IMG/VR virus record: IMGVR_UViG_3300036790_000425
Coordinates: 98,436-162,435 of that record
Length of the DNA: 64,000 nt
Reading direction: 5' to 3' (one strand)
Source of the DNA: a virus
Shown: positions 33,494 to 46,154 of the stretch, in pieces
Numbering within the stretch: the first letter of the stretch is position 1
Layout of the letters: every line of letters starts with the position of its first letter
Translations under genes and position numbers: made by a program
The notes under the pieces: model-generated
Database searches by the model: none
What the model was told of the DNA's origin: nothing
The model's input: the letters and a program-made list of their open reading frames with translations, nothing else

Positions 33494-33909
33494 CCTGCAC
33501 TCCGGTCTGTGTCGTCTTCCACGGTCGTCATCGGGCCCAGGCTGGCAGCCTGGTTAGACCAGGGCTGGCTGTGGTCCCGGGTGCGCACCGCCCCGGTCTG
33601 CGCATCCACTTCCATGCCCTGGGCCTCCAGGCGCTCGCGCGCCCGCCGGGCCGCCGCCGTGACCCGCTCCTTATCGCCGTCCGGGTCACCCCGGTTGACG
33701 GTCAGGCCGGGCGAGGTCTGCACCACGTTGGGCGAGACAGCCTCGTCATCGGGGTCCATCGCCCGCAGCGCCCACGCGAGATCCCCGGCCGCGGCCACGT
33801 CGAACGCCTCGGTGACGCCCCGCAGTTCGGTGTGAGCGGCCTGCGGGCCGGCGGTGTCCGAGGTGTCGTAGGTGCCGGTCATGGCGGAGGTATCGCGCGG
33901 GCGCTGCAC
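33490..33909 (-). CDS. Hypothetical virion protein
   Basis: 139 aa, coupled to the next gene. Confidence 0.55.
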   Translation of the reverse strand: MQRPRDTSAMTGTYDTSDTAGPQAAHTELRGVTEAFDVAAAGDLAWALRAMDPDDEAVSPNVVQTSPGLTVNRGDPDGDKERVTAAARRARERLEAQGMEVDAQTGAVRTRDHSQPWSNQAASLGPMTTVEDDTDRSAG

Positions 33910-33913
33910 CGGC

Positions 33914-34432
33914 CTAGTCCTCCAGCGTCCAGGGTCCGCTGCCGCGCCGCACGCAGCGCTCAGCCAGGCCGGCGTGCCGCGCGCACAGCGGGGGTCCGTT
34001 GTCCTTCTCCCTTGCCCGGACCGGGATCTGCTCGCCGCAGGGCGCCTCCGGGCGGGTGCCCGGGCCGATGCAGGTGACCACGATCATGTCGTTGTCGGAG
34101 GCCTCGTCGATGCTCTCCCGGACGGTCAGCTCCTCAGCCGCCATCCGGTCGCGGAAGTTACTGGTCTGCCTGGCTAGCGCGGACTGCACGAGCGGGTCTT
34201 CCTCGCCCTCGATCACCTTCAGGACGCCCTGCCGCAGCGAGCGGGCGAAGGCCGGCGCGGCCAGCATCTCGCGCGGGATGGGCTGCACGTCGTCACCGCT
34301 GCGGTCGCCCCGGCCGGCGAAGGTGACCGCGTAGGTCTCCTTCGGGTCCGAGGCGATCACCGTCGGCCCGGACATCATGTTCTGGCACATCACGGGCGCC
34401 TGAACGCCGTAGCTGGCGAGGTCGGCAGTCAT
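33914..34432 (-). CDS. Hypothetical head-associated protein with C-terminal Cys cluster
   Basis: 172 aa, AGGAGG RBS. Confidence 0.65.
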   Translation of the reverse strand: MTADLASYGVQAPVMCQNMMSGPTVIASDPKETYAVTFAGRGDRSGDDVQPIPREMLAAPAFARSLRQGVLKVIEGEEDPLVQSALARQTSNFRDRMAAEELTVRESIDEASDNDMIVVTCIGPGTRPEAPCGEQIPVRAREKDNGPPLCARHAGLAERCVRRGSGPWTLED

Positions 34433-34469
34433 GGGTCCTCCTGATCCTTCTGGGCTCCGGGGATAGGTA

Positions 34470-34799
34470 CTAGCCGAGGATGAGGTAGGCGACCACCGAG
34501 GCGTCCGAGGACGAGCTGGAGGAGATCGTGAAGCCGCTCCCCGGGCTCTGCGACGGCACCGACAGATGGCCGGCCGTACCGGAGAGTGCCATGCGGCTCA
34601 CCAGGATGACGGAATCAGCCGTGACCGCCCCGGCCGATACGTTCACCGTGCCGGCAGTCAGGGTCACGGTACCCCAGGACATCGCCGGCAGGCCGCCCAG
34701 CTGCTCATCGTGAGCGGTCAGGGCGTCGGAGATCTGGCCGTGAGCCAGGATGTGCCCGGGCTGCCCGGCAGCAGGATCGTCAGGCGGGATTGTCGTCAT
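34470..34799 (-). CDS. Small structural protein (gp53/H-type lectin-like C-terminus)
   Basis: 'GTVTLTAGTVNV...GSGFTISSSSSSDASVVAYLI' fibre-tip-like motif. Confidence 0.6.
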   Translation of the reverse strand: MTTIPPDDPAAGQPGHILAHGQISDALTAHDEQLGGLPAMSWGTVTLTAGTVNVSAGAVTADSVILVSRMALSGTAGHLSVPSQSPGSGFTISSSSSSDASVVAYLILG

Positions 34800-34860
34800 G
34801 CGCACCTCCCTCACTTCTTCCGTGGCGGGAGGCCGGCTCGATAGCGGTGAACACGCATGC

Positions 34861-34935
34861 TGGAGGCCCCTCCGGGAGTTGAACCCGGCTGCGCGGTTTT
34901 GCGGACCGCTACCTTGGCCGCTCGGTCAAGGGACC
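34861..34935 (-). tRNA. tRNA-Cys(GCA), C33
   Basis: Cloverleaf; anticodon loop CCGCAAA; CCA encoded. Confidence 0.85.
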
Positions 34936-34936
34936 C

Positions 34937-35012
34937 TGGTGAGCCTGGACGGACTCGAACCGCCGACCTTCTCCTTAGGAGGGAGTAGCTCTGTCCGCTG
35001 AGCTACAGGCTC
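34937..35012 (-). tRNA. tRNA-Arg(CCT)
   Basis: Loop CTCCTAA; CCA encoded. Confidence 0.9.
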
Positions 35013-35018
35013 ACGGTG

Positions 35019-35092
35019 CACCTCCGGTCCGACTCGAACGGACGACCTCTTGGTTCGGAACCAAGTGCGCTATCCACCTGCGCTACGGAGGC
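35019..35092 (-). tRNA. tRNA-Arg(CCG)
   Basis: CTTGG-TTCCGAA-CCAAG. Confidence 0.9.
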
Positions 35093-35170
35093 TAGACGGC
35101 AAATGCCGCGTATTTCTCATCTAGGACTACCTGGCATACAGCGCCCAAAATGCTACATGCTACCTCCAGA

Positions 35171-35207
35171 CCGGAGGCGGTCGCTCTATCCGCTGAGCTA
35201 CGGGTGC
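35171..35207 (-). pseudogene. 5' half of a tRNA-Arg(CCG), truncated just after the anticodon
   Basis: GCACCCG TA GCTC AGCGGATA GAGC G ACCGC CT CCG G, then unrelated lower-GC sequence. Confidence 0.75.
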
Positions 35208-35218
35208 TTGATGGTGCG

Positions 35219-35300
35219 TGGCGGAACCAGGTGCCGACCCTGGCCTGTCCGAAGACGACGGTTTTACAGACCGCTGAGCGCGCCGGCGCTCACTTCCGCC
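35219..35300 (-). tRNA. tRNA-Tyr(GTA), atypical T-loop
   Basis: Loop CTGTAAA, long variable arm, T-loop GTCGGCA. Confidence 0.8.
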
Positions 35301-35376
35301 TGGGGAGGATGACGGGACTCGAACCCGCTCCTACTGGGTCCACAACCCAGCCCTTCGACGCTTCGGGCTCATCCTC
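35301..35376 (-). tRNA. tRNA-His(GTG)
   Basis: CTGGG-TTGTGGA-CCCAG; C73; no encoded G-1. Confidence 0.85.
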
Positions 35377-35378
35377 AG

Positions 35379-35450
35379 TAGCCGCTGGAGGTACCGATCC
35401 TCCGGCCCCCGCCGTGTGAAAGCGGTGCTCTGCCATTGAGCTAAGCGGCC
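35379..35450 (-). tRNA. tRNA-Val(CAC)
   Basis: Loop TTCACAC; T-loop ATCGGTA. Confidence 0.8.
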
Positions 35451-35517
35451 ATGCTGGCGAGTGGGGATTCGAACCACCGGGGGCCGTCGCCCTTCCGCTC
35501 CGTGCTCTCGCCAGTCG

Positions 35518-35589
35518 TGCGCCCGAGAGGACTCGAACCTCCATCGCCAGCTCCGCAAGCTGGTGTCCTGTCCGTTGAACGACAGGCGC
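35518..35589 (-). tRNA. tRNA-Arg(GCG)
   Basis: CCAGC-TTGCGGA-GCTGG; intact cloverleaf. Confidence 0.85.
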
Positions 35590-35590
35590 G

Positions 35591-35662
35591 TGGTCGCTCC
35601 AGGTGCTGACCCTGGGGCCTCCGCCGTGTCAGGACGGCGCTCTCCCGCTGAGCTAAGCGACC
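35591..35662 (-). tRNA. tRNA-Val(GAC)
   Basis: Loop CTGACAC; T-loop GTCAGCA. Confidence 0.8.
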
Positions 35663-35765
35663 CTGCCCGGAGTCTTCCGCATCCCCGCCCGGTCACCCGG
35701 GCTCTCCGAATCAGCCGGGGCGCCGCGGACGCCCGGTGACTGCCACCCTGTGATGGGGGGACTCG

Positions 35766-35840
35766 CGGTCCAGACGGGATTCGAACCCGCGGTCTCCAGC
35801 TTGACGGGCTGGCGGGGACGGCCGGCTCCCCTACAGGACC
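35766..35840 (-). tRNA. tRNA-Asp(GTC), C33
   Basis: CCAGC-CCGTCAA-GCTGG. Confidence 0.85.
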
Positions 35841-35899
35841 TTGGTGACCCTTGCGGGCCGGTGTTACCTTGAAAACTCACTAACGGGAAGGACCGGGCA

Positions 35900-36013
35900 A
35901 TGCGCGACAAGCTTCGCATGACTCTCTACGCCCTGGCCGGAGGCGGCGGCTTCTTCGCCATCGGCGGCATCTTCTACCACACGGTCAAGCCGCTGATCTT
36001 CTATCACACCTGA
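35900..36013 (+). CDS. 37-aa hydrophobic peptide with duplicated IFYHT motif
   Basis: MRDKLRMTLYALAGGGGFFAIGGIFYHTVKPLIFYHT*; GGAAGGA RBS; GC3-rich codons. Confidence 0.65.
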   Translation: MRDKLRMTLYALAGGGGFFAIGGIFYHTVKPLIFYHT

Positions 36014-36065
36014 TCTGTGCTCCCGAGGGCGCAGGCCAGTGCTGACCGAGGCCTGCTGGCCTGTG

Positions 36066-36139
36066 CTCCCGAGGAGGGACTCGAACCCCCAACCATCGCC
36101 TTAACAGGGCGCCGCTGCTGCCAATTGAGCTACCCGGGA
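36066..36139 (-). tRNA. tRNA-Asn(GTT)
   Basis: Loop CTGTTAA. Confidence 0.85.
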
Positions 36140-36178
36140 CCGGGGGCCGGCCACCTGCCAGGCGGCCGGCCTCTTGCG

Positions 36179-36252
36179 TAGCGGGGGCGGGATTCGAACC
36201 CGCGGTCTCCGGATTATGAGCCCGGCGTGCTTCCTAGCTGCACTACCCCGCA
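36179..36252 (-). tRNA. tRNA-fMet(CAT), initiator-like
   Basis: Loop CTCATAA; 1:72 mismatch; GGG in the anticodon stem. Confidence 0.8.
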
Positions 36253-36253
36253 G

Positions 36254-36326
36254 TAGCCCCAGCCGGTGCTGACCCGGCGCCTCCGGATTGAAAGTCCGGC
36301 CACCTGACCGTTAGTGAGATGGGGCC
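36254..36326 (-). tRNA. tRNA-Glu(TTC)
   Basis: Loop CTTTCAA; T-loop GTCAGCA. Confidence 0.75.
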
Positions 36327-36331
36327 TTGCG

Positions 36332-36403
36332 TAGCCTCACGGAGAGTTGAACTCCGCCCTGCTGACTGAGAACCAGCTGTCCTTGCCGCTAGACGATGAG
36401 GCC
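36332..36403 (-). tRNA. tRNA-Glu(CTC)
   Basis: Loop TTCTCAG. Confidence 0.88.
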
Positions 36404-36485
36404 ATGAGCCCGGCTTGACCGACCAGGCAGAGACCCTGCTGCATGCCGCAGGGTCACGGGGCCCGTCTGAAGTGGGCCGGTCTCG

Positions 36486-36558
36486 CGCGCCATCAGGGTC
36501 TCGAACCCCGGGCCTGCTGCTTAGAAGGCAGCCGCTCTATCCGCTGAGCTAATGGCGC
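36486..36558 (-). tRNA. tRNA-Arg(TCT)
   Basis: GCTGC-CTTCTAA-GCAGC. Confidence 0.9.
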
Positions 36559-36562
36559 AGAG

Positions 36563-36637
36563 TGCCCCCGCCAGGATTTGAACCCGGGACCCTCGCATTA
36601 AAAGTGCGCAACTCTGACCAGGCTGAGTTACAGAGGC
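36563..36637 (-). tRNA. tRNA-Lys(TTT)
   Basis: Loop CTTTTAA. Confidence 0.88.
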
Positions 36638-36638
36638 G

Positions 36639-36713
36639 TGGCGGGGGTGGGACTTGAACCCACGTCCTGCTGCTTATGAGGCAGCCGCTTGTACTCAGCT
36701 CAGCTACCCCGCC
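36639..36713 (-). tRNA. tRNA-Met(CAT), elongator
   Basis: GCTGC-CTCATAA-GCAGC; paired G1-C72. Confidence 0.85.
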
Positions 36714-36783
36714 GGGGAGGCATCGCGGCCCGGTACAGCCGTGTCCCCGGGTGTGACCTGGCTAGGCTGCTCCGCGATGCCAG

Positions 36784-36857
36784 TGGGCCGAGGAGGACTT
36801 GAACCTCCGACCGTTTCCTTATCAGGGAACCGCACCAACCTGCTGTGCTACCGGCCC
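36784..36857 (-). tRNA. tRNA-Ile(GAT)
   Basis: Loop CTGATAA. Confidence 0.88.
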
Positions 36858-36893
36858 GTGGTTGAACTGATGCGCCCGGGGAAGCTGGGGCGC

Positions 36894-37055
36894 ATGGTTA
36901 TCATCATTGCCCTTCTTGCCTTCGCGATCGCCGCGCTGATCGCGTTCACCTCGCTGAACGGGATCTCGGTCATCGGCCTCGGCATGGTCGGGCTGTTCTT
37001 CCTCACGCTGCACTTCGTCGTGCCGGAGCGCTATGGCGTGCCCTGGAGGCGGTGA
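36894..37055 (+). CDS. Small two-TM membrane protein antisense to the tRNA operon
   Basis: MVIIIALLAFAIAALIAF...FFLTLHFVVPERYGVPWRR. Confidence 0.65.
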   Translation: MVIIIALLAFAIAALIAFTSLNGISVIGLGMVGLFFLTLHFVVPERYGVPWRR

Positions 37056-37061
37056 CCTGAG

Positions 37062-37148
37062 AGGCGGGAGTGGGATTCGAACCCACGAGACCGTGAGGCC
37101 TGGCTGTTTTCGAGACAGCTGCACTAATCCGGACTATGCGACCCCGCC
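37062..37148 (-). tRNA. tRNA-Ser(CGA)
   Basis: Loop CTCGAAA; long variable arm. Confidence 0.9.
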
Positions 37149-37162
37149 GGAGTTGGATCTTG

Positions 37163-37251
37163 CGGAGGAACCGGGATTCGAACCCGGGAGGGGATCTCTC
37201 CCCTACTGCCTTAGCAGGACAGCGCCATCAGCCAGACTCGGCCATCCCTCC
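37163..37251 (-). tRNA. tRNA-Ser(GCT)
   Basis: Loop CTGCTAA; long variable arm. Confidence 0.9.
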
Positions 37252-37336
37252 AGGTGGCGCCGCGGATTGCCGTCTCCCGCGCCTCTGCACCCGCGTGTCC
37301 TCCTAACGGACTTGGATTCGTATCCAGTGCAGCTTG

Positions 37337-37420
37337 TGTCCCAGGAGGGAGTCGAACCCTCACGCCCTCTCGGGCGCCGCGCTCTGAACGCGGTGCGTCT
37401 ACCTGTTTCACCACCGGGAC
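37337..37420 (-). tRNA. tRNA-Leu(CAG)
   Basis: CCGCG-TTCAGAG-CGCGG; long variable arm. Confidence 0.9.
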
Positions 37421-37454
37421 AGGTCCCGGCCTGAGCAGGCAGGCCGGGGTCTTG

Positions 37455-38639
37455 CTAGCCCTTGACGCACACCACCTGCTTGATGTGGTGACGGACCTCG
37501 ACCAGGTCCGTCTGCGCCGCGATCACCTCACCGATGTCCTTGTAGGCACCCGGGATCTCATCCAGCACGCCCCGGTCCTTCCGGCACTCGACCCCGTCGG
37601 TCTGGGCCGCCAGGTCGGCCTCGGTGAAGGCCCGCTTCGCCGCGCCGCGCGACATCCGCCGCCCGGCGCCGTGCGAGGCCGAGCACATCGAGTCCCGGCT
37701 GCCGAGCCCGGCCACGATGAAACTGCCGGTGCCCATCGAACCCGGGATGATGCCCAGCTCGCCCAGGCCGGCCCGGATGGCGCCCTTGCGGGTGACCATC
37801 ACCTCAGTGCCGCCCCAGTTCTCCTCCGCCACGTAATTGTGGTGGCAGGAGATCGGCTCGTCCCAGCTGACCGGCCGGCTAAGCGCGGTGTCCAGGGCGC
37901 CCATCGCCAGGCCGAGCATCACCTGGCGGTTGCGCCGGGCGTAGTCCTGGGCCCAGTACAGGTCCCGCCGGTAGGCGTCCATCTCGGGGGTCCCGGTCAG
38001 GAACACCGCCAGGTCCCGGTCCGGCAAGCCGGCATTGTGCGGCAGCGCCCGGGCCGCCTCCATGTGCCGCTCGGCCAGCTCCTTGCCGATGTTTCGCGAG
38101 CCCGAGTGCAGCATCAGCCACACGCGGCCAGCGTCATCGCCACCCTGCTCGGTGCACAGCTCGATGAAGTGGTTCCCTCCGCCGAGCGTGCCCATCTGGC
38201 TGCGGGCCCGGCCGTGCCGGTACTGGACTCCCTCGTGCAGAGCGGCGAAGCCGCCCCAGAACGACTTCCAGGTACCGCCGGTCATCCGGATCGCATGCTC
38301 GTGCGAGCTGAAGCCAACCGGGATGGCCATCTCCAGCTCGATCCGGACCTCGTGCAGGTCATCCGGCAGGTCGCTGGCTGTGAGGTGACTGCGGACTGCT
38401 GTCATCCCGCAGCCGATGTCCACGCCGACCGCCGCCGGGCAGACCGCCTGACGCATCGCGATAACCGAGCCGACGGTGGCGCCCTTGCCGTAGTGAACGT
38501 CCGCCATGACGGCGACCTCGGTGGTCCAGGGGAGGCTCGCCACGTTCCGAAGCTGCTGCTGCGCGGAGGGCTCGATCGTCCAGGGGTCAATCCACACGCG
38601 CACTGGTGCCCGGGTGCCGGGCAGCATCTGGTAAGCCAT
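37455..38639 (-). CDS. rtcB: RtcB RNA ligase
   Basis: MADVHYGKG, VGVDIGCG, GTLGGGNHFIE, HSGSR, SHGAGR, DEIPGAYKDI motifs. Confidence 0.97.
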   Translation of the reverse strand: MAYQMLPGTRAPVRVWIDPWTIEPSAQQQLRNVASLPWTTEVAVMADVHYGKGATVGSVIAMRQAVCPAAVGVDIGCGMTAVRSHLTASDLPDDLHEVRIELEMAIPVGFSSHEHAIRMTGGTWKSFWGGFAALHEGVQYRHGRARSQMGTLGGGNHFIELCTEQGGDDAGRVWLMLHSGSRNIGKELAERHMEAARALPHNAGLPDRDLAVFLTGTPEMDAYRRDLYWAQDYARRNRQVMLGLAMGALDTALSRPVSWDEPISCHHNYVAEENWGGTEVMVTRKGAIRAGLGELGIIPGSMGTGSFIVAGLGSRDSMCSASHGAGRRMSRGAAKRAFTEADLAAQTDGVECRKDRGVLDEIPGAYKDIGEVIAAQTDLVEVRHHIKQVVCVKG

Positions 38640-38675
38640 CAGGGTTTCCTCCTTTGATGGTCTGAATCAATGACG

Positions 38676-38749
38676 AGCGGATGACCGGGATCGAACCGGC
38701 GACCTCGACGTTGGCAACGTAGCGCTCTAGCCAGCTGAGCTACATCCGC
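38676..38749 (-). tRNA. tRNA-Gly(GCC)
   Basis: Loop TTGCCAA. Confidence 0.9.
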
Positions 38750-38753
38750 ATGT

Positions 38754-39097
38754 GAGCCGGCCTGTAAGCCGGGTTCTGTACCCGCCAGGGGCGGGCGACG
38801 GCCATCCATCTGGGACCGCCATCGCTGACGGCCTCGTGCGGCCTACCAGCCGGCACCGGGCGGGCCGCCCGCCAGCTTCTGGCCTTGCTCCGGGTGGGGC
38901 TTGCCGAGCCGCCCCGGTCACCCGGGACGCTGGTGGTCTCTTACACCACCGTTTCACCCTTACCCCCGAGGGGGCGGTCTGTTCTCTGCGGCGCTTTCCC
39001 GTGGGTCACCCCAGGTTGCCGTTAGCAACCACCCTGCCCTGCGGAGCCCGGACTTTCCTCGGCACCCCGGAAGGTGACGCGGCCGTCCAGCCGGCTC
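38754..39097 (-). ncRNA. rnpB: RNase P RNA (bacterial type A)
   Basis: P1 GAGCCGG/CCGGCTC; conserved GAGGAAAGTCCGGGC, GGTAAGGGTGAAACGGTGGTGTAAGAG, GGAGCAAGGCC, ACAGAACCCGGCTTAC. Confidence 0.95.
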
Positions 39098-39099
39098 AG

Positions 39100-39173
39100 A
39101 GCCCCGAATCGGATTCGAACCGATGACCTTCTCCGTACCGAGGAGATGCTCTGCCGGGCTGAGCCATCGGGGC
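39100..39173 (-). tRNA. tRNA-Thr(GGT), C33
   Basis: TCTCC-TCGGTAC-GGAGA. Confidence 0.85.
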
Positions 39174-39192
39174 AGGCCCGGCCGGAGCCGGG

Positions 39193-39408
39193 TCAGGCAG
39201 CGCCGAACCGGTCGAACTCGCCGTTCCGGACGCCGCCGATGAAGGCCTCCCACTCGGAGGCCGTGAAGACCAGGTGCGGCCTGGCCGGGTGCTTGCTGTC
39301 GCGCACGCCGACCTCGCCGCGCGGCAGGCTGGCTACCTCGACGCAGTTGCCGTTGGCGAAGCTGAGTGATGACTTGACCCACTTAACCGGCAGCTCTTTC
39401 ATGGTCAT
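39193..39408 (-). CDS. DUF397 family protein
   Basis: 'WVKSSLS..GNCVEVA...VGVRDSK.P..PHLVF...EWEAFI.GVR.GEFD'; TATCAT -10 lies 6 nt before the ATG (leaderless). Confidence 0.92.
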   Translation of the reverse strand: MTMKELPVKWVKSSLSFANGNCVEVASLPRGEVGVRDSKHPARPHLVFTASEWEAFIGGVRNGEFDRFGAA

Positions 39409-39428
39409 ACCGGGATGATATCCGTAAG

Positions 39429-39500
39429 CTGAGGGAGCGGGCTTCGATCCCGCGTTGCCCGGGCCAAAACCGAGTGTCCTGCCAGCTAGACGATCCCCCA
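39429..39500 (-). tRNA. tRNA-Gln(TTG)
   Basis: Loop TTTTGGC; U1-A72. Confidence 0.82.
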
Positions 39501-39505
39501 CCGCG

Positions 39506-39578
39506 AGCCCCCGGCCGGAACCGAGCCGGCGACCTCCTGATTACAAGTCAGGCGCTCTGCCAGCTGAGCTACGGAGGC
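39506..39578 (-). tRNA. tRNA-Thr(TGT)
   Basis: CCTGA-CTTGTAA-TCAGG; T-loop CTCGGTT. Confidence 0.85.
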
Positions 39579-39635
39579 AGGCCCCGGGCCGGGGCACCGC
39601 GCAGGGCGCCCTGGGGTGCCGCGGCACCGGGGGTT

Positions 39636-39712
39636 GCAGGTGCCCTCGCCTCCGGGCTGCGCGCCTCCCTCGCGGGCTGCGCGGCGGGACTCGAACCCGC
39701 GATCTGTCCTGC
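39636..39712 (-). ncRNA. Circularly permuted tRNA-like module D
   Basis: GCAGG..GCGGG TTCGAGT CCCGC, CGCGC..GCGCG, CA GCCC GGAGGCGA GGGC A CCTGC. Confidence 0.7.
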
Positions 39713-39715
39713 TCG

Positions 39716-39801
39716 TGTCCGGGGCGGGACTCGGACCCGCACGCCCTTGGTAGGGCACAGCCACCTCAAGGCTGCGCGTCTGCCATTTCCGCCACCCGGA
39801 C
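39716..39801 (-). tRNA. tRNA-Leu(GAG)
   Basis: CAGCC-TTGAGGT-GGCTG; long variable arm. Confidence 0.88.
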
Positions 39802-39802
39802 G

Positions 39803-39876
39803 AGCCCCGACCCAGAATCGAACTGGGGACCTGCTCATTACGAGTGAGCCGCTCTATCCGCCTGAGCTATCGGGGC
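39803..39876 (-). tRNA. tRNA-Thr(CGT)
   Basis: GCTCA-CTCGTAA-TGAGC. Confidence 0.9.
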
Positions 39877-39979
39877 AAGATGTGCCAGGCCTCCGCCGTT
39901 GGCGGGCTTCGCATCCTGGCTTGACGGTGGCTGGCCGCCAGGCCGGGACACTCGGAGGGAGCCACCCTCACCTGGGCTG

Positions 39980-40054
39980 CTGACCACCCTGGACTCGAAC
40001 CAGGAAGTGTCCCGGACCAGAACCGGGCGGGTCTGCCATTTCCCCTAGTGGTCA
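39980..40054 (-). tRNA. tRNA-Gln(CTG)
   Basis: CCCGG-TTCTGGT-CCGGG. Confidence 0.85.
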
Positions 40055-40087
40055 TTGTCGGCGGATTGACGCGCTCCGGCCGGGCGC

Positions 40088-40164
40088 TGGTGGGCGAGGC
40101 GGGAATCGAACCCGCGCCTGTGGCGTTTTTGACGCGCTGCCTCTGCCTGCTGGGCTACTCGCCC
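40088..40164 (-). tRNA. Leu-type tRNA body with ambiguous anticodon (CAA or AAA)
   Basis: Good acceptor, D and T arms plus CCA; anticodon arm GCGCGTCAAAAACGCCA pairs irregularly. Confidence 0.6.
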
Positions 40165-40489
40165 CAGATGATCTGTGACCGGCCGCGAGGGGGATACGGC
40201 GCACCCGGTAGCCCGGTAGCCCTATCCGCGCGATGCCCTTCGCGCGAGCCGCTGACTTTCGTACTGACCCCTCGCGGCCGGTCAGGCTGAAGGTGCGGGT
40301 GCCCGGACCGGCTACCCCTTGTCAGGGTCGGAGGACACGAGCCTCCTGGCCGTCAGCCGGGCGCCTTCCGGAGCTTTCAGGCCGCCCGCTAGCCCGGGAC
40401 TGAGAATCCCGTTCCGCTGCTTCCCGAGGGCCCCGGGATTCTCAGTCCCGGGCTCCGAGGCCAGCACCCTGGCCTGCCCTGCACTCAGT

Positions 40490-40518
40490 ACATTACAGGG
40501 TTTCCAGCTAACGGTCAA
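40490..40518 (-). promoter_or_regulatory. Sigma-A/HrdB-type promoter inside the RNA operon
   Basis: TTGACC-17 bp-TAATGT, overlapped by the 20-bp operator-like motif. Confidence 0.7.
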
Positions 40519-40519
40519 G

Positions 40520-40597
40520 TGGTACGCCGCCACGGGCTCGAACCGTGCACCCCCGGATTAAGAGTCCGGTGCTCTACCAGCGATGAGCTAGCGGCGC
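40520..40597 (-). tRNA. tRNA-Lys(CTT)
   Basis: CCGGA-CTCTTAA-TCCGG; CCA encoded. Confidence 0.9.
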
Positions 40598-40601
40598 TCA
40601 G

Positions 40602-40674
40602 AGCGGACGACGGGAGTCGAACCCGCAACAACCAGCTTGGAGGGCTGGTACCCGGCCAGTTGGGACTCGTCCGC
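40602..40674 (-). tRNA. tRNA-Gly(TCC), C33
   Basis: CCAGC-CCTCCAA-GCTGG. Confidence 0.82.
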
Positions 40675-41137
40675 ATGATGCCCCGCCACCGTGACGCCGT
40701 GGCCGGCAACCCGTTCACGCGCCGGCCCGGAATGCACTTGCGGGCCGGCAGGCATGAGACCAGAGTCGTGCACGACCCTGGCTGGCCCGGGGAGCGTCCT
40801 CCCCGGGGCGGGCTACCGGCTGGTTACGGCCTGCCCGTCATGCCATCGCACAACCCCGGGAATCGAACCCGGCCTACCGGTGCTCCCGGCAGGGCAACCC
40901 ATGCTGCTGCTTTACCCGGGGCGCAGGGCCCGGCGGCCGATCGCGTCCGCCAGGATGCGTGATCCCGGGTGCCCGGGCCCGTCGATCGTCAGGCCCAGCG
41001 GAGCACCGGGAGTCGAACCCGGGCCATCCCGGCTGGACCGCGCCGTAGCGCGCCAGTCCCGGTCTGCTGACCAGCTCAGTTACTCCTGCACGCGAGGTGC
41101 CCCTCGCGCTCCAGCATGCTGGTGCGCACCAGCATCG

Positions 41138-41211
41138 TGGTCCCGCCTGGTTTCGGGCCAGGGGCCTCCGGGTCTTCACTCCGGCGCTCTTACCTACTGA
41201 GCTACAGGACC
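41138..41211 (-). tRNA. tRNA-Phe(GAA), atypical T-loop
   Basis: Loop GTGAAGA; T-loop CCCGAAA. Confidence 0.75.
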
Positions 41212-41292
41212 TCGTTCCTGGGGAGGCGGCCGGGCTCGGACCCCTCCGTGTGGTTCCCCGCCGGGGGTTCCTCCCCGTGATCTTCAAGTCTG

Positions 41293-41576
41293 AGGGGCGC
41301 TCTGCCATTGAGCTACCCGGACGGCTAAGCCCAGGCCGGGACTCGAACCCGGATCTCCCCGCGGGCTGCTCTGCCGCCTGAGCTACCCGCCAGGAGCGAC
41401 CTGGCGGGGCGGGACTCGAACCCGCGACCTGCCCTGCTGACGGTGGCGTCCTGCCGATTGGACGACTGGCCACCAGGGAGTACTCCCCGGCTCCGGGTCT
41501 CCGGCATCAGGGAGCGCTCCCCTCGGCCGTCCTCCCGGACATAAGACCAGGCGGGACTCGAACCCGCATTACCACC
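41293..41576 (-). ncRNA. Tandem array of three circularly permuted tRNA-like modules (A 41442-41576, B 41362-41435, C 41293-41361)
   Basis: Each has a T-arm (TTCGAGT loop), then a self-closed acceptor hairpin, then a D-arm, all bracketed by a 4-5 bp stem. Confidence 0.8.
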
Positions 41577-41579
41577 AGG

Positions 41580-41654
41580 TCGGGATGGCCAGATTCGAAC
41601 TGGCGACCCCCTGCTCCCGAAGCAGGTGCTCTAGCCAAGCTGAGCCACATCCCG
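41580..41654 (-). tRNA. tRNA-Pro(CGG)
   Basis: CCTGC-TTCGGGA-GCAGG. Confidence 0.92.
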
Positions 41655-42119
41655 TTTAGCGCCGGTACTTCCCCGGTGGTGATAAAGATCCTCCTCCGGT
41701 TCACTCTCAGCCAGCTATCCCGCCCCGGGCGCGGGCGGCCGGTCCCGGGGCGCGTGGCCATCACGCTCGGGTGCCTGCACGATTCTGTCCCTTCCGGGAT
41801 TTTCGGCGGCCTCGTGCTATGGCCACGCCGGTCACTGACATCCCTGGCGATACGGATTTGAACCGCGAGGTCCCTCTTGCGGAGGTCCTGGTCGCCAGCC
41901 CTACCCAGGGCCGTGTGCCGGAACTCGGTGATGCTGTCACATCGGGGCACAGAGCATCGTCCTCGGTGAGCTGCTCCGTGGTCTCGACCACACAGGACTG
42001 GCTCGTGCCTGTGCCCCTCCGCCGGGCGGCCAAGCCCGGTCTCCCTGCCCTTCCCGGAAACGACCGGGGTGGCTGGGGCCTGCCGTCGGGAGGATCTCCC
42101 GGTGTGACGGCACCATCGG

Positions 42120-42193
42120 TCGGGGTGGCGGGATTCGAACCCGCGTCCTCCTGATCCCAAATCAGGCGCGCTGCCAGGCTGCGCTACACCCTG
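42120..42193 (-). tRNA. tRNA-Pro(TGG)
   Basis: CCTGA-TTTGGGA-TCAGG. Confidence 0.92.
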
Positions 42194-42244
42194 TGAATCC
42201 GGGGACGGCAAGGTTACCCGCCTTGAGGCTTCCGAGCCCCGGAG

Positions 42245-42319
42245 TGGACCACCCGGGGATCGAACCCGGTGCCTTCCGCTTGCGAGGCGGACGCTCTACC
42301 TACCATGAGCTAGCAGCCC
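42245..42319 (-). tRNA. tRNA-Ala(CGC)
   Basis: Loop CTCGCAA; G3:U70. Confidence 0.9.
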
Positions 42320-42486
42320 TTGCGGCGGGATTCCGGTGACGCGAGCGTTTCCCGCCTGGCTCCCGGCTGGCTCAGCCGGTCAGTTACGGCACTACTCGCG
42401 GCCGGGAGAGGGCAACCCTTCCCTTAGCCTGATCTCTCATTTACTCCAGGCGGCTGCCGCTGCCACGCGGCTGCCGGACTGTCCTG

Positions 42487-42560
42487 TGGAGCTGAAGGGG
42501 CTCGAACCCCCGGCCTCCTGCGTGCCACGCAGGCGCTCTACCAAGCTGAGCTACAGCCCC
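42487..42560 (-). tRNA. tRNA-Ala(GGC)
   Basis: Loop GTGGCAC; G3:U70. Confidence 0.9.
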
Positions 42561-42830
42561 TCGGCACCTGTGTACTGCCGCCACCCTGGCCGAGGCCAGG
42601 GCCGCCACCCCTGCGGTGCGATGCGAGTCCCGCTCTCGTGGGGGACCGGCAGCAGCACGGTGCTTGCCACGGACGCGGCAGAACCGCGCACTGGGCGTCT
42701 TGCTCCCTCCCCGGCCCGCCGGGCTCGGTCCCCGCTGACACGGGGAGCTGGCCACCTGGACCAGGGAGGGAAGAACTGGCGGCCGGGCCTGAATGGACGC
42801 TGGCAACGTCCGGCCAGGCCGCCTCGTGTT

Positions 42831-42851
42831 CACACGCTATTGAGCTGTCAA
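42831..42851 (-). promoter_or_regulatory. rrn boxA-like antitermination element
   Basis: TTGACAGCTCAATAGCGTGTG resembles the actinobacterial rrn-leader TTGAGAACTCAATAGTGTGT; related GACAACTGAAT at 42974-42984. Confidence 0.5.
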
Positions 42852-42902
42852 TTTACGAGCCGGTTGCCCCGCCGTTGCTCTCGCTCGGGCCGGGTGGCTG
42901 CG

Positions 42903-42970
42903 CACGAGTACTAGGTTCCGATCCCAGCCCACCGGTTTTGGAGACCGGTGGCCGCCCAGCGGCTACTCGC
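42903..42970 (-). tRNA. tRNA-Trp(CCA), compact D-arm
   Basis: CCGGT-CTCCAAA-ACCGG; 68 nt; T-loop ATCGGAA. Confidence 0.7.
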
Positions 42971-43163
42971 TAGATTCAGTTGTCCCCGGGTAACACGAGA
43001 GCCGCCGGCAGGTCTTCCTGCGGGCGGCTCCTGGGCTCAGGTCCGGGTTGTCCCCTTACCCAGGGCGCCGCTGCTTCCCCTGCTCCGGCAGGCAGCTGAC
43101 ATCATGCGATGCCAGCCAGCCCGCGGGCTGGTTCCTGGTGAAGCTGTGGTGCGTCATGTCTCC

Positions 43164-43193
43164 ATCTTAGCTCGCTGCCCTCGCCGAGGGCAA
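43164..43193 (-). promoter_or_regulatory. Probable main promoter of the tRNA operon
   Basis: TTGCCC-18 bp-TAAGAT with an AT-rich upstream tract. Confidence 0.6.
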
Positions 43194-43267
43194 CGGTTTT
43201 CTACAACTTTTATTGCTAGCGCTCTGACCAGGTCCGGAGCCCCCTCAGCAAGCCCCCGGCCTGGCCT

Positions 43268-43477
43268 TCAGGGTCCGTACTGCTCGGGCAGCCCGTTGTT
43301 GAGCAGCCTGCGCACCTCGTCCTCCCGGTACCGGCGGTGGCCGCCCATCGTCCGGATCGAGCGCAGCTTGCCGGACTTGGCCCAGCGGGTCACCGTCTTG
43401 GGGTCTACCCGGAACAGCGCGGCCACCTCCCGGGGGGTGAGCAGGGCGGGTGCCTCGGGGTGAGCTGTCATGGGCAT
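43268..43477 (-). CDS. bldC: BldC-like MerR-family winged-HTH regulator
   Basis: LLTPREVAALFRVDPKTVTRWAKSGKLRSIRTMGGHRRYREDEVR closely matches the BldC signature. Confidence 0.9.
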   Translation of the reverse strand: MPMTAHPEAPALLTPREVAALFRVDPKTVTRWAKSGKLRSIRTMGGHRRYREDEVRRLLNNGLPEQYGP

Positions 43478-44056
43478 GGCCTCTCTCGGTGGTTCGGGGA
43501 CGGAAGGCCCTCTACCTTGTGGTTAGCGCGCATGCGCCGGGTTCCGTCACCCCGGGCCAGGGTCCGGGGGGCGGCGGGGGCGATGCAGAAGACGCCTGAA
43601 GTGGCAGGTGATCACAAACTATAGCAAGGAAAGCCATACCAACAACCTCGCGACCCGCGCATCCCAGGCATCAGTACTGAGACGTCACGCAGGCCGCAGG
43701 GGTTTACCTATGTACCGGTACCTGCCGGGCCGCCGCGAAAGCGCTCCGGGCGCCGCACCTCGGGCGGGACGGAACGCCGGGGGGCGAAGCCGGCGCCGCC
43801 GGGCTCGTTGAGCCAGGACGGGTCCTCGGCCGCGGGGTAATCAGCGGGGAAGCCGGGCACCTGGACGACCTCGACGGCCACCACCCCCGCCGGCGGCGTG
43901 AATCCCGGCTGCACCACATACCAGGCCGATACCGTTCCGTCGTCCCGGGTGAACCTCGCCACCGGGACCCTGGGGGCTGGCCCCAGGTGCACCTCCCCCA
44001 TGCGGACTCCCCTCCTGAAGGTGCCGCTGAGCCTAGCAAGAGAGGCCGCAGCGAGG

Positions 44057-44520
44057 GGTCCGTGCACAACAGGACGGGTTCCGTGCACTAGCCGTGCACA
44101 AAAAGTGCGGAACGAGTGTTCGATATATCTTGCTGACCTTGTGTTGTGCACTACGTGCACAAAAAACAGCGATTTTGGCGATCTGGATTCACGGCGGGGT
44201 CTCGTAGATCATTCCGGCCCGGCCGCGTAGGGCTCTGGCCGTGTGTCCGCGTTGTCGCGTTTGTCTCCCTCGCGTGACCAGAACCTCGATTTTGGCGATT
44301 TCTTGTGCACGTAGTGCACAACCCCAGGTCAGAGGCCCTTTTCCTGCGTCCCGTTGTGCACTTCCTTGTGCACGGCTAGTGCACGGGGCCCCGCCGTTGT
44401 GCACGGACCGGCCGCGAGGCGGCCTCTGAACCAACCCTTACTAGTCCTTAGTAGATTTAACTTCTTTAATTATTATTATTAGCTCTAAAAAGAATTAAGT
44501 ATTAGTAGTTATCAGTTACA
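44057..44520. repeat. About 110-bp imperfect inverted repeat with 11 GTGCAC palindromes plus AT-rich tract (candidate replication origin)
   Basis: 44057-44167 mirrors 44298-44409; 44430-44520 is strongly AT-rich in ~70% GC DNA. Confidence 0.75.
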
Positions 44521-44614
44521 GGCAGGAACCAGGACATACATGATCCGCACTGTTCACGAAGTTACCGGTCAGTAATCTGCACAGCGCACTCATGGCCAGC
44601 CCTACCCTGGCGTC

Positions 44615-44980
44615 ATGGGCAGCACCCGCTTCACGTTCCGGATGACGCTGGCCGCCTTCGAGTCCCTGGATCCGGCCGCCGGCCGCGCCCTGGTCGGCCA
44701 GCAGGTTCCGGTCCGCTGGGGCGATGCCGAGGCCGGCGCGCTGATCGAGGAGGCCCAGGCCGACGGCAGCGGCGATGTCGTCATCACGATGCTGATCGAC
44801 GAGGAGATGCCCGGCCCGGACGAGATGATCGTGCCGTGCTGCGCCGAGGGAGCCTGCTGCTGCCTGGCCGGCCCGACCGGTGAGCCGTGCGGCTGCACGC
44901 ACCTCAGCCGAGAACTGTCCGGAGTGCCTGCTGCCGCCGCTGGTCGGCCCGGCGCCGGTCAGCATCCCGGTACTCCCTGA
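44615..44980 (+). CDS. Hypothetical protein with Cys cluster
   Basis: 121 aa, GC3-biased codons. Confidence 0.5.
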   Translation: MGSTRFTFRMTLAAFESLDPAAGRALVGQQVPVRWGDAEAGALIEEAQADGSGDVVITMLIDEEMPGPDEMIVPCCAEGACCCLAGPTGEPCGCTHLSRELSGVPAAAAGRPGAGQHPGTP

Positions 44981-45260
44981 TCTGCTGCACGCCCAGCCGG
45001 GTCTCGGACCGCACCTGGTCCTCTCGTAGCGGCCAGCGCGGGACGAACTCGCGAGCCGCCCGCAGGCAGCCGCCGCCCATCGTCTGATAGGCCCGCTCGA
45101 CCAGCAGGATGAGGATCTCGAAGTACTCCATGTCCGCGGTCCCGGTCACCTGGCGCAGCTCGACCCAGTAGCCGATGTCCAGGCCGTCACCGGGACGCTC
45201 ACCCGCCTCCAGCGCGACCCAGGTGCTTACCTGCTCGCGCATGTCGTGGGTGATCCCCAT
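44904..45260 (-). CDS. Hypothetical protein
   Basis: MGITHDMREQ..., GC3-biased codons. Confidence 0.55.
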   Translation of the reverse strand: MGITHDMREQVSTWVALEAGERPGDGLDIGYWVELRQVTGTADMEYFEILILLVERAYQTMGGGCLRAAREFVPRWPLREDQVRSETRLGVQQIREYRDADRRRADQRRQQALRTVLG

Positions 45261-45330
45261 GCTGCGCACCCTACGTCTCTCCTCCGGTCTTGTCCCGGTC
45301 CCTGCACATTGATGTCCTGCCGTCCGGTGA

Positions 45331-45645
45331 CTACGAGGACCGGCTCCCGGCCTGGTCCAGGCAGACCCGATCGACCTCGATCAGGCCGTCCGCCTCCCTG
45401 GCCAGCAGCGCGTCCATGAAGCCGATCACGAACGGGGTGATGGACATGATCAGCACCACCTGGCCGCGCAGGCCGTTCAGGTGCCGGGTCTCCCAGATCC
45501 AGGGCGCCTGCCTGCTGTCCAGGCCGTGCCGGGCGCAGTAGATGTCCAGCTCCCGCCACGTCGGGCAGGCGATGTGAGGAGCCGTCCTGATGGACAGCTC
45601 CCCCTGGCCCCCCAGTGGTCCGCTGCTCAACGGGCCTCCCGGCAC
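45331..45645 (-). CDS. Hypothetical protein
   Basis: Plausible codon usage; start uncertain. Confidence 0.45.
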   Translation of the reverse strand: MPGGPLSSGPLGGQGELSIRTAPHIACPTWRELDIYCARHGLDSRQAPWIWETRHLNGLRGQVVLIMSITPFVIGFMDALLAREADGLIEVDRVCLDQAGSRSS

Positions 45646-46078: not shown

Positions 46079-46154
46079 CCCTCCAGGCTATACGGGGGAA
46101 GCCAGAGGGCCCGTCGCCGGTATGAGCGGCGGCGGGCCCTCCTGAGGGAGACGG

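What the first reader, a model, noticed from the sequence alone, without database searches (positions are those of the whole stretch)
38754..39097. Phage-encoded RNase P ribozyme beside RtcB in a complete tRNA set
Seen: all hallmark RNase P RNA motifs, flanked tightly by tRNA-Thr and tRNA-Gly, about 115 nt from rtcB. Established: rnpB is a core cellular gene and is rarely reported in phages. Inference: 36 tRNAs, a 5'-processing ribozyme and a repair ligase form a self-contained tRNA supply, maturation and repair module. It may be tuned to this phage's non-canonical tRNAs and would use host RnpA.
Basis: partly seen in the sequence, partly recalled or inferred. Interest (0 to 1): 0.82.

Follow-up and report, generated by a model that had tools for sequence, protein, structure and literature searches.

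The report
Phage-borne RNase P ribozyme gene
A complete 162-kb soil phage of high-GC actinobacteria carries an intact, full-size copy of the RNase P ribozyme (the RNA enzyme that trims new tRNAs) between two of its 36 tRNA genes; its five closest relatives lack it, and I found no published report of a phage RNase P RNA.

Summary
Window 38749-39098 (minus strand) is a full-length bacterial class A RNase P RNA: Rfam 280 bits against a cut-off of 100, 98 of 102 model pairs present, P4 intact. It lies 1 nt after tRNA-Thr(GGU), 3 nt before tRNA-Gly(GCC) and 114 nt from rtcB. The record is a CheckV-complete 162-kb myovirus-like phage with 36 tRNAs for all 20 amino acids.

It is not a host chimera. 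Contigs from four soil studies bridge both junctions. The best of 802 sampled actinobacterial genomes is only 78% identical. The nearest relatives are two other viral-collection contigs (81-85%) that carry the gene in the same Thr|Gly slot of a syntenic array.

The "self-contained module" reading is overstated:
- The genome has no rnpA and no CCA-adding enzyme.
- Five related phages, two of them complete, lack both the ribozyme and rtcB.
- Those relatives keep the same array, including the same odd-T-loop tRNAs.
- One carrier has no rtcB.

The gene is best read as an accessory cassette, probably expressed by tRNA punctuation and using host RnpA. This scan has noted phage RNase P RNAs before, in at least 30 other genomes. 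I found no published report.

The parts
38749..39098 (-). RNase P RNA gene (bacterial class A, 350 nt). Helix P1 runs from 39098 (5' U) to 38753 (3' A). Positions 38752-38750 (CAU) link it to tRNA-Gly.
   Evidence: RF00010: 280 bits, E 2e-90, model 1-367. 98 of 102 model pairs are present, one is non-canonical, and P4 is 8/8 canonical. The L15 GGU motif is visible in the alignment.
39099..39173 (-). tRNA-Thr(GGU), immediately upstream. Its discriminator is at 39100; one C (39099) separates it from the ribozyme's first base.
   Evidence: ARAGORN; Rfam tRNA 61.2 bits. The same tRNA precedes the ribozyme in L018 and L019.
38675..38749 (-). tRNA-Gly(GCC), immediately downstream. RNase P cleavage at its 5' end would create the ribozyme's 3' end.
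   Evidence: ARAGORN; Rfam tRNA 59.4 bits. It directly follows tRNA-Thr(GGU), with a 0-71 nt spacer, in five related phages that lack the ribozyme.
37455..38639 (-). rtcB (RNA 3'-phosphate/5'-OH ligase), 36 nt after tRNA-Gly and 34 nt before tRNA-Leu(CAG), preceded by AGGAGG.
   Evidence: PF01139 391 bits; phrog_1075 E 7e-126. No match in the five relatives.
37336..37420 (-). tRNA-Leu(CAG), the downstream edge of the segment (rtcB + tRNA-Gly + ribozyme) that has no counterpart in the closest relative G411.
   Evidence: ARAGORN. In the G411 comparison there is no match for window 37421-39097; gene order.
34861..42970 (-). tRNA array of 36 genes, all on the minus strand, covering 20 amino acids. 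It includes His 35304-35376, Tyr 35218-35300 and Glu(UUC) 36254-36326, which default ARAGORN misses.
39193..39501 (-). Small DUF397 gene inside the array, just upstream of tRNA-Thr. The listed ORF overlaps tRNA-Gln, so the true start is probably internal.
   Evidence: PF04149 78.7 bits, E 4e-22. On my own knowledge, DUF397 is an actinomycete-typical domain.

Best explanation
SHOWN. The phage genome encodes a full-size, structurally intact class A RNase P RNA. It occupies one slot of the phage's tRNA array, exactly between tRNA-Thr(GGU) and tRNA-Gly(GCC). It belongs to a small clade of RNase P RNAs found on viral-collection contigs, nested within actinobacterial sequences. It is present or absent among otherwise syntenic arrays.

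INFERRED. It has no promoter of its own and is transcribed as part of the long minus-strand tRNA/rtcB polycistron. It is released by the same enzymes that release tRNAs. 3' processing of tRNA-Thr, which has no encoded CCA, would leave at most one extra 5' base. RNase P cleavage at the 5' end of tRNA-Gly would leave a 3-nt 3' tail. The freed RNA then binds the host's RnpA protein, since the phage has none, and adds RNase P capacity for the more than 36 cleavages needed per array transcript during infection.

It is an accessory, exchangeable cassette rather than a core gene. It possibly moves between arrays by recombination through the flanking tRNA genes. Its adjacency to rtcB in this phage is a consequence of both being inserted into the array, not of a fixed module.
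For: Identity and integrity:
- RF00010 280 bits, full length.
- 98 of 102 model pairs present, one non-canonical; the P4 pseudoknot with its bulged U is 8/8 canonical.
- The GGU of L15 and the conserved P4/J18-2 strings are present.

Structure-preserving evolution:
- Against L018 (81% identical), 27 pairs differ. 19 of them still pair, 11 through changes on both sides.
- P7 shows GGGUG/CACCC in the window against GGACG/CGUCC in L018 and L019.

Phage context and continuity:
- Tail sheath and virion proteins, CheckV 100%, uniform GC of about 0.69.
- Logan contigs from four soil studies cover the region. X1 covers 36522-38942 and 39020-39365 with 0-2 differences. X2 covers 38410-38720 and 39032-39243. 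A diverged strain in X3 covers 37336-38950. X4 covers 38691-38878.

Not a recent host copy:
- The best full-length identity is 78% in 401 evenly drawn Actinomycetota genomes.
- It is 77-78% in 401 genomes of the order of the Jatrophihabitantaceae MAG.
- The tree puts window + L018 + L019 together (SH-aLRT 99) inside an actinobacterial clade (SH-aLRT 98).

Same slot elsewhere:
- L018 has Leu(gag)-Thr(tgt)-Gln(ttg)-Thr(ggt)-[ribozyme]-Gly(gcc)-Leu(cag)-Ser(gct); L019 has the same upstream order.
- A tRNA lies within 10 nt of at least one end of the ribozyme in L005, L010 and L012.

Dependence on the host: no PF00825 (rnpA) match in the complete genome.

Punctuation geometry:
- Read directly from the sequence.
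- Several tRNA pairs in the array are separated by the same single C.
- Directly linked tRNAs can be resolved by RNase P in vitro (abstract of PMC12381190).
Against: - There is no RNA evidence.
- No promoter or terminator consensus was found in the array, so the transcription unit is assumed.
- Five related phages (tail sheath 68-83% identical, two of them complete genomes) lack the gene. It is therefore dispensable for this phage type, and any benefit is conditional.
- The window has G at 38989 where 97 of 101 aligned RNase P RNAs have A (J11/12). From memory, this region contacts the tRNA elbow, so activity could be altered.
- That base lies in 38942-39020, the conserved core that no unique contig among those listed spans. 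Single bases there are unverified.
- Compatibility with any RnpA is untested.
Confidence: 0.6

Rival explanations
1. Neutral passenger. The ribozyme gene hitch-hiked into the array by recombination between tRNA arrays. It is transcribed or not, but contributes nothing, and is on its way to loss.
For: It is absent from the five closest relatives, whose Thr|Gly spacers are only 0-71 nt. There is no RNA evidence. It has a rare G at a 96%-A position.
Against: It shows almost perfect pairing and has no truncation. Compensatory changes occur within the viral clade. The same slot is occupied in three elements whose ribozymes are 15-19% diverged and which share very few proteins, which implies long retention. 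It is also kept in a diverged strain from another study (X3).
Confidence: 0.17
2. Specialised enzyme. The phage ribozyme is adapted to the roughly nine phage tRNAs with aberrant T-loops that host RNase P handles poorly.
For: About 9 of 36 tRNAs have non-canonical T-loops. There is an unusual G in J11/12 of the specificity domain.
Against: G411, the closest relative, has no ribozyme yet keeps tRNA-Glu(UUC) and tRNA-Gln(UUG) with the same aberrant loops at 97% identity. G413-G415 also carry odd-T-loop Val or Tyr tRNAs. L018 and L019 have the usual A at that J11/12 position.
Confidence: 0.1
3. Take-over or decoy. The RNA competes for host RnpA, or soaks up a host factor or nuclease. This would redirect or shut down host tRNA maturation, or counter a defence, rather than simply adding capacity.
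For: The phage has no rnpA, so it must share the host protein. The gene has an accessory, patchy distribution typical of host-interaction genes. It lies next to rtcB, which on my own knowledge is associated with repair of nuclease-cut tRNAs.
Against: There is no direct evidence. The catalytic core is fully conserved, which a pure decoy would not need. rtcB linkage is not conserved.
Confidence: 0.1
4. Assembly artefact. A host rnpB was stitched into a phage contig through shared tRNA sequence.
For: The conserved core 38942-39020 is shared with many soil bacteria (depth 400-1600), and the unitigs break there.
Against: Phage-depth contigs run from rtcB through tRNA-Gly into the ribozyme, and from the ribozyme through tRNA-Thr into the DUF397 gene, in several independent studies. 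No sampled bacterium exceeds 78% identity. The same architecture is found in L018 and L019.
Confidence: 0.02

Closest known systems
Bacterial class A RNase P RNA (rnpB; E. coli M1 RNA; Rfam RF00010)
   Same: It has the full set of class A helices, the P4 pseudoknot and the L15 GGU, and its score is far above the family cut-off. Its sequence nests among actinobacterial rnpB genes.
   Different: It is encoded by a virus. It is embedded without spacers in a tRNA array instead of standing alone. No partner rnpA lies in the same genome. At 350 nt it is 12-62 nt shorter than 14 actinobacterial neighbours of 362-412 nt, with short P3 and P12 and no extension in the P15-P17 region. It belongs to a clade known only from viral-collection contigs.
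Other RNase P RNAs on IMG/VR contigs, and earlier notes of this scan
   Same: 15 of 19 IMG/VR loci that carry the P4 motif contain RF00010 above cut-off. About nine of them sit next to or inside tRNA arrays on contigs of 31-497 kb. The scan's notebook lists 36 such notes in at least 30 genomes.
   Different: Many of those are described as miniature or remodelled. This one is full-size and canonical. Viral copies need at least four separate origins on the tree, so this is one lineage among several.
tRNA array units of Mycobacterium chromosomes, prophages, plasmids and mycobacteriophages (Morgado & Vicente 2018, PMC5966550)
   Same: These are dense tRNA arrays on mobile DNA of actinobacteria that also hold other non-coding RNAs (tmRNA and a structured RNA of about 430 nt) and translation-related genes.
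   Different: That paper does not mention RNase P RNA or RtcB. This phage's tail sheath is at most 29% identical to those of Mycobacterium, Rhodococcus and Gordonia myophages.
Theta (HDV-like) ribozymes next to tRNAs in gut phages (PMC10879173)
   Same: They are phage-encoded ribozymes placed beside phage tRNA genes and proposed to act in tRNA end maturation.
   Different: Theta ribozymes are small, self-cleaving and act on 3' trailers in cis. This one is a trans-acting 5'-end enzyme that needs a protein cofactor.
Yeast mitochondrial RPM1 (RNase P RNA gene flanked by tRNA genes and co-transcribed with them); recalled from memory, not checked here
   Same: The RNase P RNA is released from a tRNA-containing precursor by tRNA-processing cuts.
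   Different: It is an organelle gene, strongly reduced and AT-rich. It is not a mobile accessory gene.

Membership tests
Bacterial RNase P RNA class A (RF00010) | Covariance-model score above the curated gathering score over the whole model | tested here: met
   280 bits against 100, model 1-367, no truncation.
Bacterial RNase P RNA class A (RF00010) | Catalytic core: P4 pseudoknot with bulged U, formed by GAGGAAAGUCCGGGC and ACAGAACCCGGCUUA | tested here: met
   Both strings are present and 8 of 8 P4 pairs are canonical. RNAalifold recovers P4 across 15 sequences.
Bacterial RNase P RNA class A (RF00010) | Class A architecture: P1-P5, P7-P12, P13/P14, P15-P18 | tested here: met
   98 of 102 consensus pairs are present; the 4 missing lie in shortened hairpins; one pair is non-canonical.
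Bacterial RNase P RNA class A (RF00010) | L15 GGU motif that pairs with the tRNA 3' CCA | tested here: met
   The window has UGGUAG at the L15 position of the alignment; L018 and L019 also keep GGU. The function of the motif is from established knowledge.
Bacterial RNase P RNA class A (RF00010) | Endonucleolytic 5' maturation of pre-tRNA (ribozyme activity) | not testable with these tools
   Needs in vitro cleavage or complementation.
Bacterial RNase P RNA class A (RF00010) | Works as a holoenzyme with the RnpA (C5) protein | not testable with these tools
   No PF00825 match in the complete phage genome, so a host protein would be required. Binding was not tested.
Phage or mobile tRNA array unit | Many tRNA genes in one orientation at high density on a mobile element | tested here: met
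   36 tRNAs within 8.1 kb, all on the minus strand, many 1-6 nt apart. The array is syntenic in six further viral records.
RtcB RNA ligase (PF01139) | Full-length match to the family profile | tested here: met
   391 bits, profile 1-426 of 426.
   Five relatives have the array but neither the ribozyme nor rtcB. G406 has the ribozyme but no rtcB. An RtcB relative (L183) has no tRNA or ribozyme within 3 kb.

The most novel reading that the evidence does not exclude
RNase P RNA circulates as a mobile cassette among the tRNA arrays of actinobacterial phages and other mobile elements. It forms virus-specific lineages of an otherwise strictly cellular, essential ribozyme. In infection the viral RNA captures the host's RnpA protein and so gives the phage control over tRNA 5' maturation. 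That would be a viral take-over of a universal ribozyme, not merely a spare copy.
Probability: 0.3. Interest if true: 0.82.

Novelty: new variant of a known kind. Interest (0 to 1): 0.66.

Why it matters
RNase P RNA is treated as a universal housekeeping gene of cells. I found no paper describing one in a virus, although large phages are known to carry tRNAs, tmRNA and translation factors.

This example suits experiments for three reasons:
- The RNA is full-size and canonical, so standard ribozyme assays and rnpB complementation should work.
- The phage genome is complete.
- Nature provides controls: five related phages have the same tRNA array with an empty Thr|Gly slot, and two unrelated elements have the slot filled.

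This material allows direct tests of several questions:
- Is RNase P capacity limiting when a phage floods the cell with a 36-tRNA precursor?
- Can a foreign RNA subunit use a host protein subunit?
- Do tRNA genes act as recombination arms that shuttle non-coding RNA cassettes between phages?

The work also corrects the tempting reading of a fixed "tRNA factory" module.

Tried and rejected
1. Expression data: no RNA holder was listed for the stretch, so nothing can be said on expression.
2. The promoter/terminator consensus scan of 33500-46500 found 0 promoters and 3 terminator-like sites, all on the wrong strand and at or below the shuffled expectation. It is uninformative.
3. Deletion scar: the 57-nt and 71-nt Thr|Gly spacers of G411 and G415 match the ribozyme no better than shuffles do (score 33 against 26 +/- 4). 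Gain versus loss stays unresolved.
4. Donor inference from the flanking tRNAs: Thr(ggt) and Gly(gcc) are 69-83% identical to all comparators alike, so there is no signal.
5. I considered that a C at position 74 in all 36 tRNA genes might be a special adaptation to the L15 GGU. It is also seen in L018, L019 and L012, but 7 of 8 non-CCA tRNAs in a small bacterial control also have C74. I do not claim it as special.
6. A permissive ARAGORN run with introns gave 222 mostly spurious calls and was discarded.
7. Relatives found through RtcB: only one distant hit, L183 (51% identical, GC 0.56), with no array nearby.
8. Viral nature of G406 (the L018 record): PHROG hits are only to primase-polymerase and helicase-type proteins among 10 long ORFs. 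I rely on IMG/VR's classification ('provirus', 90% complete) and call it a viral-collection contig, not a proven phage.
It was useful only for handles and tree rows.
10. GenBank phages: blastn found ribozyme-like matches only in uncultured 'Bacteriophage sp.' gut contigs, two Acinetobacter phage MD-2021a contigs and a mislabelled Salmonella record. No clearly cultured isolate stood out.
12. Complex prediction was not used, because there is no protein-protein claim.

Full report
OBSERVATION

cmscan against Rfam 15 places a complete bacterial class A RNase P RNA (RF00010) on the minus strand at window 38749-39098. It scores 280 bits against a gathering score of 100, with E 2e-90, model positions 1-367 and no truncation (repeated). 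ARAGORN and Rfam put tRNA-Thr(ggt) at 39099/39100-39173 and tRNA-Gly(gcc) at 38675/38676-38749, on the same strand.

Read on the minus strand, the order is as follows:
- the tRNA-Thr discriminator U at 39100;
- one C at 39099;
- the 5' strand of helix P1, starting at 39098;
- the 3' strand of P1, ending at 38753;
- a three-base linker, CAU;
- position +1 of tRNA-Gly at 38749.

The rtcB ORF (37455-38639; PF01139 391 bits; phrog_1075 E 7e-126) starts 36 nt after tRNA-Gly, behind an AGGAGG.

THE GENOME IS A PHAGE AND THE JOIN IS REAL

The window is bases 98436-162435 of a 162,435-bp IMG/VR record that CheckV rates 100% complete. It encodes a tail sheath, tail fibre and virion proteins. The sheath is at most 29% identical to those of Mycobacterium, Rhodococcus and Gordonia myophages. 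GC is a uniform 0.65-0.74 across the window.

Four soil metagenome runs from four studies hold the stretch. Their Logan contigs were laid on 36000-42000:
- In X1, phage-depth pieces run without differences from 36522 to 38942, that is, tRNAs, rtcB, tRNA-Gly and 190 nt into the ribozyme.
- Also in X1, pieces run from 39020 to 39365 (ribozyme 5' part, tRNA-Thr, next gene) and onward from 39336.
- X2 gives 38410-38720 and 39032-39243.
- X3 carries a diverged strain, 37336-38950 with 33 differences.
- X4 gives 38691-38878.

Only 38942-39020 is not spanned by a unique contig. This is the universally conserved core, where depth jumps to 400-1600 because many soil bacteria share the k-mers. A chimera with host DNA is therefore very unlikely, but single bases in that 78-nt stretch are unverified.

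INTEGRITY OF THE RNA

I mapped the Rfam consensus structure onto the sequence:
- 98 of 102 model pairs are present. The four missing lie in shortened hairpins.
- Only one present pair is non-canonical (U22-C37 in P3).
- The P4 pseudoknot, which Rfam's structure line omits, is 8/8 canonical with the bulged U.
- The conserved strings of P4, J18/2 and the GGU of L15 are present.

At 350 nt it is shorter than 14 actinobacterial neighbours of 362-412 nt. The difference comes from short P3 and P12 hairpins and the lack of an extension in the P15-P17 region.

There is one oddity. Position 110 of the RNA (window 38989), in J11/12, is G where 97 of 101 aligned RNase P RNAs have A, including the two closest viral ones. 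From memory, this junction contacts the tRNA elbow. The base lies in the unverified core stretch.

WHERE IT COMES FROM

- An even sample of 401 Actinomycetota genomes gave matches in 335. The best full-length identity was 78% and most were 70-76%.
- A second sample of 401 genomes came from the order that holds the Jatrophihabitantaceae MAG (L042/G001). It gave 51 genomes at E <= 1e-68, against two in the phylum-wide sample, but again none above 77-78% over the full length.
- The tool flags five genomes as unpublished (G053, G006, G093, G125, G341). They enter only the 335/401 tally. No named claim or tree row rests on them.
- The best match of all is another IMG/VR contig, L018 (190 kb, 81% over the whole RNA).
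- In a maximum-likelihood tree of 101 RNase P RNAs, the window groups with L018 and L019 (31-kb IMG/VR contig) at SH-aLRT 99. That trio sits inside an actinobacterial clade (SH-aLRT 98) beside Jatrophihabitantaceae and Nakamurella.

The gene is therefore of actinobacterial ancestry, probably from that order. This fits the sheath relatives and a DUF397 gene inside the array. It is not a recent copy of any sampled host gene.

Across IMG/VR, 15 of 19 loci holding the exact P4 18-mer carry RF00010 above cut-off. About nine of them lie next to or inside tRNA arrays on contigs of 31-497 kb. On the tree the viral copies need at least four origins.

Within the window's clade the fold is maintained by compensation. 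Against L018, 27 pairs differ; 19 of them still pair, 11 by changes on both sides. For example, P7 is GGGUG/CACCC in the window and GGACG/CGUCC in L018 and L019.

THE DECISIVE COMPARISON

Five IMG/VR phages have tail sheaths 68-83% identical to this one (records G411-G415). Two of them are complete: G414 has terminal repeats, and G415 is rated 100%.
- None has an RF00010 match.
- None has an RtcB match. The same query did find a distant RtcB in another record.
- All five nevertheless carry the same tRNA array in the same order...Gln(ttg)-Thr(ggt)-Gly(gcc)-[Gly(ccc)]-Leu(cag)-Ser(gct)....
- In them tRNA-Thr(ggt) and tRNA-Gly(gcc) are neighbours, 57, 11, 0, 12 and 71 nt apart. In the window the gap is 349 nt and is the ribozyme.
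- In the closest relative, G411 (array DNA 68-92% identical), the whole of window 37421-39097 (rtcB, tRNA-Gly, ribozyme) has no collinear counterpart.

Conversely, L018 and L019 have the ribozyme in the very same slot of the same gene order. Yet the L018 record shares only about three proteins with this phage and has no rtcB.

The ribozyme is thus a presence/absence cassette at a fixed position of a widely shared array, and rtcB is a separate insertion in the next slot. Whether this phage gained the cassette or the relatives lost it cannot be decided. The empty-site spacers show no scar above chance, and the flanking tRNAs are equally diverged from all comparators. The flanking tRNA genes are obvious candidates for recombination arms; this is inference.

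THE tRNA SET AND THE 'TUNING' IDEA

ARAGORN finds 33 tRNAs in the whole genome, all in the array, and no tmRNA. Rfam at E-value threshold, low-threshold ARAGORN and my reading of the loops add His(GUG), Glu(UUC) and Tyr(GUA).

About nine have non-canonical T-loops, for example GTCAGCA in Glu(UUC) and Val(GAC). But G411, which lacks the ribozyme, keeps Glu(UUC) and Gln(UUG) with the same odd loops at 97% identity. G413-G415 also have odd-loop Val or Tyr genes. Host RNase P evidently copes with them, so a requirement for a tuned phage enzyme is not supported.

The array is also not self-sufficient:
- only 5 of 36 genes encode CCA;
- the genome has no CCA-adding enzyme (PF01743);
- it has no rnpA (PF00825).

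MECHANISM

Shown: gene content, geometry, conservation and distribution.

Inferred:
- The RNA is made as part of the minus-strand tRNA/rtcB polycistron. No promoter-like site was found in the array.
- Its 3' end is produced by RNase P cleavage at tRNA-Gly +1, leaving CAU.
- Its 5' end is produced by 3' processing of the CCA-less tRNA-Thr. Several tRNA pairs in the array are separated by the same single C.
- RNase P can resolve directly linked tRNAs in vitro (abstract of PMC12381190).
- It then joins host RnpA and adds RNase P capacity while a transcript that needs more than 36 cleavages is being made.

I give this 0.6. The rivals are a neutral passenger (0.17), an enzyme specialised for aberrant tRNAs (0.10), an RnpA-capturing or decoy role (0.10) and an artefact (0.02).

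WHAT IS KNOWN

Full-text searches for phage-encoded RNase P or rnpB phrases returned nothing. The following papers do not mention a phage RNase P RNA:
- the Rfam-name search results;
- two RNase P gene-finder papers;
- the huge-phage survey;
- the Mycobacterium tRNA-array survey;
- the theta-ribozyme paper.

GenBank phage records gave blastn matches only in uncultured gut 'Bacteriophage sp.' contigs, two Acinetobacter phage MD-2021a contigs and a mislabelled Salmonella record. This scan's own notebook, however, holds 36 notes of phage RNase P RNAs in at least 30 genomes, also without a paper. The phenomenon is therefore recurrent in metagenomic phages, and this is one more lineage of it.

VERDICT

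The RNA itself is an ordinary, intact member of RF00010. What is unusual is its context:
- it is virus-encoded;
- it is tRNA-punctuated;
- it has no partner protein in the same genome;
- it belongs to a clade seen only on viral-collection contigs;
- it is polymorphic at a fixed array slot.

I rate it a new variant of a known kind, with interest 0.66.

Noticed in passing
window 41295-41360, 41364-41433, 40564-40634 (minus strand): There are sub-threshold matches to the Y RNA-like family YrlA (RF02553): 32, 40.4 and 27 bits against a gathering score of 69 (E 1e-3, 4e-6 and 0.03). They lie inside the tRNA array, at the place another first-reader note calls 'permuted tRNA-like RNAs'. On my own knowledge, bacterial YrlA genes often sit in rsr-yrlA-rtcB operons. 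The phage has rtcB but no TROVE/Rsr match.
   Followed up: partly
window 39193-39501 (minus strand): A DUF397 gene (PF04149, E 4e-22) lies inside the tRNA array between tRNA-Gln and tRNA-Thr. The region has a counterpart in relative G411. It is a hint of an actinomycete host.
   Followed up: no
window 34861-42970: Every tRNA gene is followed by C at position 74, yet only 5 of 36 encode CCA. Several neighbours are separated by that single C. One RNase P cut would then leave the upstream tRNA ending in N73-C74. The same pattern occurs in L018, L019 and L012. A small bacterial control (7 of 8) suggests C74 is common anyway.
   Followed up: partly
window 35304-35376 (minus strand): The probable tRNA-His(GUG) is missed by ARAGORN. 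It has U rather than G at -1 and an encoded CCA, which is unusual for a bacterial-type tRNA-His.
   Followed up: no
window 38989: There is a G in J11/12 of the ribozyme where 97 of 101 aligned RNase P RNAs have A. It lies in the 38942-39020 core that no unique contig listed spans.
   Followed up: partly
L075 (9.9-kb contig binned in a 'Streptomycetaceae' MAG): Its RNase P RNA sits on a long branch with the viral contigs L005 and L010 (SH-aLRT 97), not with actinobacteria. The contig may be a mis-binned mobile element or phage.
   Followed up: no
L019:65-392: The closest-clade relative is a more reduced ribozyme (328 nt). It lacks P18 and most of P3 but keeps the core.
   Followed up: no
window 37252-37336 and 40290-40514: The diverged strain in run X3 replaces 83 nt between tRNA-Ser and tRNA-Leu with 9 other letters, and replaces 223 nt near 40290-40514 with 114 letters. 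The array spacers are indel hot spots.
   Followed up: no
window 34470-34814 (minus strand): A small ORF with a K1 capsule lyase C-terminal domain (PF24146, E 2e-19) lies just downstream of the array, at the end of the tail/structural block.
   Followed up: no
GenBank MT836823.1 and MT835553.1 (uncultured 'Bacteriophage sp.', human faecal samples): Unannotated records with 76% and 73% blastn matches to about half of the query, within the ribozyme. They are possible further phage-borne RNase P RNAs in public phage records.
   Followed up: no
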